A DNA stretch of 64,000 bases from Escherichia coli. Its GTDB lineage: Bacteria; Pseudomonadota; Gammaproteobacteria; Enterobacterales; Enterobacteriaceae. Below are positions 4,401-7,400 of this stretch, in pieces. The DNA lies in NCBI RefSeq assembly GCF_045037415.1, contig NZ_CP173438.1; one strand, 5' to 3'. Positions within the stretch are counted from its first letter, which is position 1, and every line of letters begins with the position of its first letter. Position numbers: made by a program.

Positions 4401-7400
4401 ATCTGGTTTGCCAGCTCCAGCCAGGCGTGACGTTGACGGTTATCGAGCACTGCACGGAAGTTTTCTGCCGCCGCCTCTGCATCAAACGGTTCGCCGTTGG
4501 AGAATTTCACGTCATCACGCAAGGTGAAGGTCCAGGTTTTGCCATCTTCCGAATGGGTCCAGCTTTTTGCCAGCCACGGGATCACCGAACCGTCTGCCTG
4601 ATATTTCACCAGCGGTTCATAAACCATGCTCTGGGCGAACATTTGGTTAGGCGTGTAAAGGTGCGGGTTTAGTGGCCCGACATTCACCGGCCAGGCGGTG
4701 GTGATTTCATCTGGTGCAGCGGCATGGACGATAAAAGACGCACAAGCCAGCAGCGCAAATAGAGTGCGGCGGAGTGTAGAGAACATGGTAACCCCAATGG
4801 ATTAAAATAGATGGCGGAAATAAGTATGACGATTTTAAGTATTCGTCATACTGATTACCTGTTCTGGATCAATAGATGGGCAGTCGGGTGGGCGGATCAG
4901 TTAACTGAATCGATCCATTGCACACTGTCGGCGGTGAGCGTAAAGGGGGTAGGGGTGCAGATCGCCAGGCTTAAATTTTCTAGCTGACAATGGCTGACTG
5001 ACAGCGAGGAGTTATAGGTGCTGTCTACGCTGACGATTTGCCAGGCGCTGCCGCCACGCTGTTTAACGATGGCTTCTTTGCGCGTCCAGATGCGCCAGAA
5101 CATTTCCAGTTGCTGATCAGGATGCACGGCGTCCATCTCGGCATGTTCCCCGAGGCTGAATACGGCGTTCGCCAGCCAGCGCCAGTTGGCGCGCGGGCGA
5201 ATCACTTCGATATCGCAGCCGACTTCGCCTTCATCGCTCAACAGCAGGGCGATATCGTCACCGCTATGGCTTAAGTTGAACCATAGCGGCGTTTCCGGCG
5301 CGAATGCAGGTTTGCCTTGTTCGCCATAGATGATCTCCGGTAGCGGGGAAAGCGTGTGCGAAAGCAATGCACGCCCCGCCAGCCAGCGTTCGCGTCGTGG
5401 ACCTTGCGGTGCTTGCTCGCGTAAACCCAGTGGCAGAGGAGCTGCGCTTAAGGTCGAAACTTTCCCCAGAACTATCCGATACATATCAGGGCCAACGTTT
5501 AATGGAAAATGAAAGTGCGTATCGTAACACTTGTCGCCTCATCCCGGTAACCGACTTTTCGGTCTGCCTGGCCCCAGTAAAATCGCCAGTTTGCTGCCGC
5601 CTTTGGTGGTTTCCATCCAGATTTTACACACGCTGGTTAATGGCACCGAAAGTAGCATCCCTACCGGGCCGAGCAGCCATCCCCAAATTAACAATGAAAG
5701 AAATACCACCATGGTGGACATCCCCAGGCGATGGCCCATCATCCGTGGTTCTAAAATATTGCCGATGACCATATGGACCACTAAAAACAATGCGCCGACC
5801 AGAATACATTCGTAAATACCATTAAACAGCAGCACCTGAATCATTGGCGGTACGGCGGAAATTACCGCACCGATATTGGGCACGTAGTTGAGCAAAAACG
5901 CCAGTACTGCCCACATCAGCGCAAACTGCACCCCCATCAGCTCCAACCCCAGCCAGACGATTACGCCTGTCCATAAACTGAGTAGCGTCTTTAACGCCAG
6001 ATAATGCGAAACGCCTTTAAGTGCGCGGTGTAGTCCGGCGATGTGAATCTGTGGATTATTCAACGCGAAACGCATTTTGTAAGGGACGTGGCGCACTTCA
6101 AACAGCATAAAAACTACGGTCATCACCAGCAAAAGCACGCTCGCCATTGCCCCGGAAAGCCCGGTCATTAGCGCCGTGGTGAAGGTAACCACTTTTTCCG
6201 AGTCCATCCGCTGTAGTATTCGCTCCGGCGACATATGCAAATTAAGAAAAGGCAACATCTCCTGCAATTTAAAAAGTTTGCGCGTCAGCTCCTTATTAAA
6301 CTTCGGCAGCATAGAGATAAATTCGTTAAACGATGCCGCCAGTACGCCGACCAGCGCGGTGAGTGCGATCAGCATCACCACAACCACAATCGTAATGGCA
6401 ACGGGGCGTTGTACTCCCCGACGAATAAACCAGGTGACGAGCGGGTTGAGAACGATGGCAAAAAACAGCGCCAGTAATAGCTGCACAATGATATCTGCCG
6501 CTGCGTGAATGCCCGCGAGGATCACTACCAGCGAGGCCAACTTGAGCAGAATGCGCATGCCCGTTTTATCGGGTTGAGGGGTTTCCATTGGGGCTTCCTT
6601 GTGACTTTTTGTATTAAGTGTAGCGGGAGTCACGCCAGCAATATTCTGATTCTTACTGCTGATTTTCACGTCAGCACATGGTAAAAATGAAACACTGTTG
6701 TAAAAATGTGGTGATCCTCATGCCCGAACCCGTAGCCGAACCCGCGCTAAACGGATTGCGCCTGAATTTGCGCATTGTCTCCATTGTCATGTTTAACTTC
6801 GCCAGCTACCTCACCATCGGGTTGCCGCTCGCTGTATTACCAGGCTATGTCCATGATGTGATGGGCTTTAGTGCCTTCTGGGCAGGGTTGGTTATCAGCC
6901 TGCAATATTTCGCCACCTTGCTGAGCCGTCCTCATGCCGGACGTTACGCCGATTTGCTGGGACCCAAAAAGATTGTCGTCTTCGGTTTATGCGGCTGCTT
7001 TATGAGCGGTCTGGGATATCTGACGGCAGGATTAACCGCCAGTCTGCCCGTCATCAGCCTGTTATTACTGTGCCTGGGGCGCGTAATCCTTGGGATTGGA
7101 CAAAGTTTTGCCGGAACGGGATCGACCCTGTGGGGTGTTGGCGTGGTTGGTTCGCTACATATCGGGCGGGTGATTTCGTGGAACGGTATTGTCACTTACG
7201 GGGCGATGGCGATGGGTGCGCCGTTAGGTGTCGTGTTTTATCACTGGGGCGGATTGCAGGCGTTAGCGTTAATCATTATGGGCGTGGCACTGGTGGCCAT
7301 TTTGTTGGCGATCCCGCGTCCGACGGTAAAAGCCAGTAAAGGCAAACCGCTGCCGTTTCGTGCGGTGCTTGGGCGCGTCTGGCTGTACGGTATGGCGCTG

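What the first reader, a model, noticed from the sequence alone, without database searches (positions are those of the whole stretch)
4824..4851. NikR operator dyad upstream of nikA
gtatga-N16-tcatac is the nickel-responsive repressor recognition pattern, located upstream of the nikA start. nikR itself lies outside the window, beyond the truncated nikE.
Basis: partly seen in the sequence, partly recalled or inferred. Interest (0 to 1): 0.2.

Follow-up and report, generated by a model that had tools for sequence, protein, structure and literature searches.

The report
Known NikR operator at E. coli nikA
This 28-bp palindrome is the textbook binding site where the nickel-sensing repressor NikR shuts off the E. 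coli nickel-uptake operon nikABCDE; it is real, correctly identified and already well known.

Summary
GTATGA-N16-TCATAC occurs once in the window, at 4824-4851, and in 0 of 100 shuffles. The window is E. coli chromosome with the nik operon on the minus strand: acpT, nikA, nikB, nikC, nikD and a nikE cut off by the window edge. nikR lies off-window. The dyad ends 37 nt upstream of the nikA ATG (4786).

The 110-nt acpT-nikA intergenic region is 100% identical to K-12 MG1655, the strain family in which NikR was characterised. Reviews give the NikR operator as exactly GTATGA-N16-TCATAC.

An independent test used 80 nikA loci from other species. 75 carry one dyad with at most 1 mismatch and N16 spacing, always upstream of nikA and nowhere else in about 520 kb. 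The half-sites hold about 1.85 bits per position, against 0.2-0.6 bits in the flanks.

The operator spacer contains a conserved TAnAAT -10 hexamer (4837..4832). A conserved FNR half-site (4872..4859) lies at a fixed distance upstream, matching the published FNR site at -40.5. The inferred transcription start is about 4825, so the operator spans roughly -26 to +2. Ni-NikR would therefore block RNA polymerase.

Verdict: already known, low interest.

The parts
4824..4851 (.). NikR operator dyad GTATGA-N16-TCATAC. In nikA-sense orientation the upstream half-site is 4851..4846 and the downstream half-site is 4829..4824.
   Evidence: Exact unique match with 0/100 shuffles. Identical to K-12. Matches the published consensus. 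Conserved in 75/80 nikA loci at about 1.85 bits per half-site position.
4823..4852 (.). Extended perfect inverted repeat 10-N10-10 (AGTATGACGA / TCGTCATACT). The inner-arm positions (YGA / TCR) are also conserved across species.
   Evidence: Sequence, the repeat finder, symmetric-position counts, information content.
4832..4837 (-). -10 hexamer TAAAAT of the nikA promoter, lying inside the operator spacer (dyad positions 15-20).
   Evidence: The sequence shows TAAAAT. TAnAAT is conserved in 52 of 58 distinct sites, with 1.7-1.9 bits at 5 of 6 positions. The assignment as the -10 element is inferred.
4824..4826 (-). Inferred transcription start of nikABCDE (about 4825, an A on the minus strand), inside the downstream half-site.
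   Evidence: Inference: 7 nt after the -10 hexamer. It places the FNR site centre (4865.5) at -40.5, the value published for nikABCDE (PMC3688515 Table 1). Not measured here.
4859..4872 (-). FNR activator site TTGATccagAACAG (8 of 10 consensus positions), centre 4865.5, class II position.
   Evidence: Pattern match. TTGAT and the CA of the right half are conserved at 1.1-1.8 bits at a fixed distance from the dyad in 75 distinct sequences. FNR ChIP-seq peak and direct activation of nikABCDE are reported in PMC3688515. FNR dependence is stated in PMC9434800.
4792..4795 (-). Shine-Dalgarno-like GGGG, 6-9 nt before the nikA ATG.
   Evidence: Sequence only; inference.
3212..4786 (-). nikA, the periplasmic nickel-binding protein and first gene of the regulated operon.
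   Evidence: ORF. TIGR02294 nickel_nikA equivalog, 839 bits against a cutoff of 393. RefSeq annotation of the identical locus.
1..3212 (-). nikB (3212..2268), nikC (2271..1438), nikD (1438..674) and nikE (677..1, truncated by the window edge at residue 225 of 268).
   Evidence: ORFs. NCBIfam equivalogs all score above cutoff. Synteny with K-12 and ATCC 11775.
4897..5484 (-). acpT, the upstream neighbour; its stop codon lies 45 nt upstream of the operator.
   Evidence: ORF. NF007676 AcpT equivalog, 392 bits. Annotation.

Best explanation
The dyad is the operator of the nickel-responsive ribbon-helix-helix repressor NikR in the E. coli nikABCDE promoter. When cytoplasmic Ni(II) is sufficient, the Ni-loaded NikR tetramer places its two DNA-binding domains on the two GTATGA half-sites. 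The half-sites lie 16 bp apart, about two helical turns. The operator spans roughly -26 to +2 of an FNR-dependent class II promoter, and its spacer contains the -10 hexamer TAAAAT. Bound NikR therefore occludes the -10 element and the start site and blocks RNA polymerase, even when FNR occupies its site at -40.5. The result is that nickel import is switched off. At low nickel, apo-NikR releases the DNA, and FNR drives transcription anaerobically to supply nickel for hydrogenases. Shown here: the presence, uniqueness, identity to K-12 and cross-species conservation of the dyad; the -10-like hexamer and the FNR site in fixed register; and the identity of the regulated genes. Taken from the literature: NikR binding, nickel dependence and FNR activation. 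Inferred: the exact transcription start and the steric-occlusion step.
For: There is one exact match and 0 of 100 shuffles contain one. The downstream genes are NikA-E equivalogs, and nikR follows nikE in reference genomes that share this promoter sequence. The 110-nt intergenic region is 100% identical to K-12 MG1655 and at least 99% identical in 5198 of 5425 E. coli genomes. The published operator is GTATGA-N16-TCATAC, bound with nanomolar affinity (PMC7055735; PMC4486848). The published enterobacterial consensus is GTATGAT-N13/14-ATCATAC (PMC545781). Of 80 nikA loci from other species, 75 have exactly one dyad with at most 1 mismatch and N16 spacing; it always lies 5' of nikA, and there are none elsewhere in about 520 kb. 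Mean information content is 1.88 and 1.83 bits for the half-sites, against 0.56 and 0.19 bits for the flanks. In 5 non-enteric loci nikR sits next to nikA, and the dyad lies between the two genes in all 5 (four at N16; the Stappia locus L073 has N15 spacing). TAnAAT in the spacer and TTGAT upstream are conserved with no indels relative to the dyad. FNR ChIP-seq reports one site at -40.5 and direct activation of nikABCDE (PMC3688515). The nikA promoter is described as repressed by NikR and activated by Fnr (PMC9434800).
Against: Nothing found argues against it. There are three caveats. The primary footprinting and crystal-structure papers could not be opened, so the comparison rests on reviews that quote the consensus and on sequence identity to K-12. 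The transcription start is inferred, not measured. The generic sigma-70 scan found no consensus promoter, which is expected for an activator-dependent promoter without a -35 element.
Confidence: 0.97

Rival explanations
1. The inverted repeat works as a nucleic-acid hairpin rather than a protein site, for example as an intrinsic terminator or stabiliser of the upstream acpT transcript, or as a 5' structure of the nikA mRNA.
For: As RNA the sense strand folds into a 10-bp hairpin of -16.6 kcal/mol, z = -5.6 against shuffles. It lies 45 nt after the acpT stop and is followed by UUAUUU.
Against: Any perfect 10-bp palindrome gives such a z-score. The terminator scan found nothing; the stem is AT-rich and there is no proper U-run. 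No Rfam family matches. Across species the commonest variant (TCACAC) produces an uncompensated A-C opposition at positions 3/26 in 9 of 58 distinct sites, and position 10/19 is A/A in 45 of 58. The inferred start (about 4825) lies inside the downstream arm, so the hairpin is not part of the nikA mRNA.
Confidence: 0.02
2. The site is chiefly the target of another regulator of nikABCDE, for example NarL, which mediates nitrate repression and whose site at nikA has never been located. On this view NikR recognition would be incidental.
For: A NarL-type heptamer TACTTAT (TACYYMT) lies at 4826..4820 on the nikA strand and overlaps the downstream half-site and +1. PMC2718512 lists nikA among NarL-regulated promoters with no detectable NarL site.
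Against: The heptamer occurs at chance frequency in the window (30 found, 24.4 expected). Its non-NikR positions are poorly conserved across species (dyad positions 29-32, 0.5-1.0 bits). The conserved signal is a symmetric 6-16-6 dyad, which fits a tetrameric ribbon-helix-helix protein and not NarL. The dyad accompanies nikR in non-enteric loci.
Confidence: 0.01
3. It is a chance palindrome with no function.
For: None beyond the general frequency of short palindromes in intergenic DNA.
Against: About 0.004 exact matches are expected per 64 kb, and 0 of 100 shuffles contain one. The dyad is conserved in 75 of 80 species at the same place, while the flanks have diverged to near-random.
Confidence: 0.003

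Closest known systems
E. coli K-12 nikABCDE NikR operator (Chivers & Sauer 2000/2002; NikR-operator co-crystal 2HZV, Schreiter et al. 2006, as cited in PMC7055735 and PMC4486848)
   Same: It is the same element. The half-sites, the 16-bp spacer and the full 110-nt intergenic region are identical to K-12 MG1655, with the same flanking genes.
   Different: Nothing differs within the regulatory region. The first differences from K-12 are synonymous-type changes inside nikA codons 2-4.
Enterobacterial NikR box consensus GTATGAT-N13/14-ATCATAC (comparative genomics; quoted in PMC545781)
   Same: Same architecture. The 75 orthologous sites recovered here reproduce it (consensus GTATGATGAAT...TAAAATCRTCATAC).
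   Different: E. coli has C/G instead of T/A at the seventh position of each arm (GTATGAC...GTCATAC). This is a minority variant: position 7 is C in 10 of 75 distinct sequences.
Delta-proteobacterial NikR boxes GTGTTAC-N13/14-GTAACAC (PMC545781)
   Same: A 27-28 bp inverted repeat upstream of nickel transporters, bound by a NikR orthologue.
   Different: The half-site sequence differs and the regulated transporter is different (nikMNQO). The Desulfovibrio nikA-like locus L079 lacks the E. coli-type dyad.
Helicobacter pylori NikR operators
   Same: Same repressor family and the same two-half-site logic.
   Different: HpNikR is pleiotropic, acts as both activator and repressor, and has only a weak consensus (PMC4486848; PMC11672702). 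The E. coli site is a single strict operator.
Class II FNR-dependent promoters (FNR site near -41.5)
   Same: TTGAT-N4-xxCAx is centred about 40.5 bp upstream of the inferred start. A ChIP-seq peak and FNR-dependent expression are reported for nikABCDE (PMC3688515).
   Different: The right FNR half-site is degenerate (AACAG against ATCAA).

Membership tests
E. coli-type NikR operator | Two GTATGA half-sites in inverted orientation | tested here: met
   Exact match at 4824-4851.
E. coli-type NikR operator | 16-bp spacer between the half-sites (28 bp overall) | tested here: met
   N16 in the window. N16 in all 75 loci with at most 1 mismatch; the only N15 case is the Stappia locus L073.
E. coli-type NikR operator | Sequence identity with the experimentally studied K-12 operator | tested here: met
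   100% identity over the whole acpT-nikA intergenic region to MG1655. The primary footprint papers could not be opened, and the literal operator string was not found in the searchable papers.
E. coli-type NikR operator | Located in, and overlapping, the core promoter of a nickel-uptake operon | tested here: met
   37 nt upstream of the nikA ATG. A conserved TAnAAT lies in the spacer, and the FNR site sits 40.5 bp from the inferred start. The transcription start itself is inferred.
E. coli-type NikR operator | Cognate nikR gene in the same genome | tested here: met
   nikR is not in the window because the window ends inside nikE. In genomes whose promoter region is identical, nikR follows nikE directly. 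In 5 non-enteric loci nikR is adjacent to nikA and the dyad.
E. coli-type NikR operator | Conservation upstream of orthologous nikA genes | tested here: met
   75 of 80 loci carry one site each, and there are none elsewhere in about 520 kb. The half-sites hold 1.83-1.88 bits per position.
E. coli-type NikR operator | Ni(II)-dependent binding by NikR protein (footprint, EMSA) | not testable with these tools
   Known only from the literature, as quoted in reviews.
Class II FNR-activated promoter | FNR box TTGAT-N4-ATCAA centred near -41.5 | tested here: met
   8 of 10 match at 4859-4872, which is chance-level within the window on its own (37 found, 29.5 expected). However, the left half and the CA of the right half are conserved in fixed register across species, and the published site is at -40.5.
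Intrinsic (Rho-independent) terminator | G+C-rich stem followed by a T/U run | tested here: not met
   No terminator-like site in 4700-5050. The stem is AT-rich and the tail is UUAUUU.
Curated RNA families (Rfam 15) | Covariance-model match | tested here: not met
   0 matches at E <= 1 in 4600-5100.

The most novel reading that the evidence does not exclude
The most novel reading not excluded concerns the operator as a rigid composite module. The FNR site, the NikR half-sites and a -10 hexamer housed in the operator spacer keep an indel-free register in all 75 distinct dyad-anchored sequences examined. Extra conserved inner-arm bases (YGAAT, dyad positions 7-11) may reflect NikR contacts beyond the canonical hexamers. 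The TACTTAT heptamer overlapping +1 may be the NarL site that has never been located for nitrate repression of nikABCDE.
Probability: 0.1. Interest if true: 0.2.

Novelty: already known. Interest (0 to 1): 0.05.

Why it matters
It matters little as a discovery, because this is a textbook metalloregulator operator. It is useful as a positive control: a reader without tools recognised a 12-base split motif correctly. An unbiased 80-species footprint recovers the operator, the embedded -10 element and the FNR site cleanly. That shows how nickel repression (NikR) and anaerobic activation (FNR) are physically integrated on about 50 bp of DNA.

Tried and rejected
- **Primary papers not held.** I tried the NikR-operator crystal structure (PMC1564233), Rowe et al. 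2005 on FNR/NarL/NikR control (PMC1236639), De Pina et al. 1999 (PMC93426) and Phillips et al. 2008 (PMC5914170). The footprint comparison therefore rests on reviews plus identity to K-12.
- **Literal operator string.** A full-text search for the 28-mer and for sub-strings found no paper.
- **Generic promoter and terminator scan.** It found no sigma-70 consensus promoter and no terminator in 4700-5050. The missing -35 fits FNR dependence, and the terminator idea was dropped.
- **Rfam scan.** No match.
- **RNA hairpin reading.** It folds well, but I rejected it as the primary function because of uncompensated variants and its position upstream of the start site.
- **NarL heptamer.** It occurs at chance level and is weakly conserved, so I kept it only as a lead.
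- **A second NikR site in the window.** There is only a 2-mismatch, chance-level hit at 51583-51610.
- **E. coli-wide conservation.** It is too uniform to be informative, so I used the cross-species loci instead.

Full report
**Observation.** The + strand at 4824-4851 reads GTATGACGATTTTAAGTATTCGTCATAC. The pattern GTATGA-N16-TCATAC matches there and nowhere else in the 64-kb window, and none of 100 dinucleotide-preserving shuffles contains a match. With 12 specified bases, about 0.004 exact matches are expected per 64 kb (my arithmetic). Allowing two mismatches adds only one site, at 51583-51610, which is what chance predicts. The perfect inverted repeat is longer than reported: AGTATGACGA-N10-TCGTCATACT at 4823-4852. 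Weaker symmetry extends to 17-nt arms.

**Context.** The window is E. coli chromosome. A 301-nt query around the site is found in 5425 of 5426 complete E. coli genomes, always between acpT and nikA. The genes lie on the minus strand:
- acpT 5484..4897
- nikA 4786..3212
- nikB 3212..2268
- nikC 2271..1438
- nikD 1438..674
- nikE from 677 to the window edge, 225 of 268 residues

All six proteins score above the curated cut-offs of the corresponding NCBIfam equivalog or subfamily models. In K-12 MG1655 and ATCC 11775, nikR follows nikE directly. It therefore lies just outside the window, and no NikR-like sequence is inside it. The dyad ends 37 nt upstream of the nikA ATG.

**Comparison with the published site.** Reviews state that Ni(II)-NikR binds the palindromic operator GTATGA-N16-TCATAC in the nikABCDE promoter with nanomolar affinity. 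They cite Chivers & Sauer 2000 and 2002 and Bloom & Zamble 2004 (PMC7055735). They also state that the ribbon-helix-helix beta-strands of the tetramer occupy the major groove of each half-site in the co-crystal structure (PMC4486848). That review words the repeat as '16-6-16', which is presumably 6-16-6. A comparative study gives the enterobacterial consensus as GTATGAT-N13/14-ATCATAC (PMC545781). The whole 110-nt acpT-nikA intergenic region of the window is 100% identical to K-12 MG1655. It is at least 99% identical in 5198 of 5425 E. coli genomes. This is therefore the very DNA on which the published work was done. I could not open the primary footprint or structure papers. The literal 28-mer does not occur in the searchable full texts.

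**Independent test by phylogenetic footprinting.** Within-species identity is too high to be informative. I therefore fetched 80 nikA loci from one genome per species and scanned them without reference to annotation.
- 75 loci have exactly one dyad with at most one mismatch and N16 spacing. It is always immediately 5' of nikA, and none lies elsewhere in about 520 kb.
- Samsonia (L026) has a 2-mismatch site, and Stappia (L073) has a 1-mismatch site with N15 spacing.
- Only the three most distant loci lack a site. These are Desulfovibrio, Paenibacillus and Domibacillus, at 49-51% NikA identity.
- Anchored on the dyad, 75 distinct sequences give 1.88 and 1.83 bits per position for the two half-sites. 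The flanks give 0.56 bits upstream and 0.19 bits downstream.
- In five non-enteric loci (Rhizobium, Stappia, Fulvimarina and a Proteobacteria MAG), a NikR homologue of 49-52% identity is encoded next to nikA, with the dyad between the two genes.

**Promoter anatomy.** The same profile shows two further conserved blocks in fixed, indel-free register with the dyad.
- Dyad positions 15-20 read TAnAAT. This is TAAAAT in the window, at 4837..4832 on the minus strand, and TAAAAT, TAGAAT, TACAAT or TATAAT in 52 of 58 distinct sites. It is a -10 hexamer inside the operator spacer.
- Positions -21 to -9 read TTGATCCAGnnCA. This is TTGATccagAACAG in the window, at 4872..4859, with TTGAT at 1.4-1.8 bits. 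It matches 8 of 10 positions of the FNR consensus.

A start 7 nt after the -10 hexamer falls at about 4825. That puts the FNR site centre (4865.5) at -40.5. Myers et al. report a ChIP-seq peak for nikABCDE, one FNR site at -40.5, increased anaerobic sigma-70 occupancy and direct FNR activation (PMC3688515 Table 1). Another paper states that the nikA promoter is repressed by NikR and dependent on Fnr (PMC9434800). The generic sigma-70 scan found no consensus promoter, as expected for an activator-dependent promoter without a -35 element. With +1 at 4825 the operator spans about -26 to +2.

**Mechanism.** Ni-loaded NikR tetramer binds both half-sites. This covers the -10 hexamer and the start site and excludes RNA polymerase, or blocks open-complex formation, whether or not FNR is bound. 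Without nickel, NikR dissociates and FNR activates transcription anaerobically. The site, its conservation and the promoter register are shown here. NikR binding, nickel dependence and FNR activation come from the literature. The exact start site and the occlusion step are inferred.

**Rivals.**
- *Hairpin or terminator.* The repeat folds as RNA at -16.6 kcal/mol with z = -5.6, as any 10-bp palindrome would. However, no terminator-like tail is present and no Rfam family matches. The frequent TCACAC variant is uncompensated in 9 of 58 distinct sites, and position 10/19 is A/A in 45 of 58. The downstream arm also contains the inferred start, so the hairpin is absent from the nikA mRNA.
- *NarL.* A heptamer TACTTAT at 4826..4820 overlaps +1. 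It occurs at chance frequency and is weakly conserved. No NarL site has ever been located at nikA (PMC2718512), so this is a lead and not an explanation.
- *Chance.* This is excluded.

**Verdict.** The finding is real and correctly interpreted, and the element is already known. It is the canonical E. coli NikR operator in its normal place. Interest is low.

Noticed in passing
window 4859-4872 (minus strand TTGATccagAACAG): An FNR activator half-site lies 7 bp upstream of the operator. It is conserved at 1.1-1.8 bits and at an invariant distance from the dyad in 75 distinct species sequences. This is consistent with the published FNR site at -40.5 for nikABCDE.
   Followed up: yes
window 4832-4837 (minus strand TAAAAT): The operator's 16-bp spacer houses a conserved TAnAAT -10 hexamer. 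NikR half-sites therefore bracket the -10 element, and the inferred start (about 4825) lies inside the downstream half-site.
   Followed up: yes
window 4841-4845 (dyad positions 7-11, YGAAT): Inner-arm bases beyond the canonical hexamer are conserved at 1.0-1.8 bits. They are not part of the -10 hexamer. They mirror the TCR / A of the other arm except at one position (10/19 is A/A). They may reflect additional NikR contacts.
   Followed up: partly
window 4820-4826 (minus strand TACTTAT): A perfect NarL-type heptamer (TACYYMT) overlaps the downstream half-site and +1. It occurs at chance level in the window (30 found, 24.4 expected) and is poorly conserved across species. The NarL site responsible for nitrate repression of nikA has never been located.
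   Followed up: partly
window 51583-51610: GAATGA-N16-TCATTC is a 2-mismatch relative of the NikR dyad. The number of such sites in the window equals the chance expectation.
   Followed up: no
L006 2352-2473 (Escherichia sp. MOD1-EC7003): A roughly 112-nt element is inserted between the intact operator and the nikA ribosome-binding site. It resembles an ERIC/IRU repeat (from memory). It is a dispersed repeat found at a median of 7 places per E. coli genome, under unannotated DNA.
   Followed up: partly
L004 2031-2465 (Escherichia sp. E1V33): A roughly 435-nt insertion sits at the same point. It consists of three tandem units of about 100 nt, GC-rich and palindromic, followed by a degenerate copy of the operator's right arm. 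The units are a dispersed repeat family with a median of 15 places per E. coli genome. The operator ends up about 470 nt from the nikA start.
   Followed up: partly
L069, L070, L071, L074 (divergent) and L073 (co-directional): In Rhizobium, Fulvimarina, Stappia and a Proteobacteria MAG, nikR lies directly next to nikA with the GTATGA-type dyad between them. In these genomes the same site could also autoregulate nikR.
   Followed up: partly
L079, L080, L082: The nikA-like loci of Desulfovibrio, Paenibacillus and Domibacillus (49-51% NikA identity) have no E. coli-type dyad within 300 nt upstream. This is consistent with different NikR box consensus sequences or different regulators in those lineages.
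   Followed up: no
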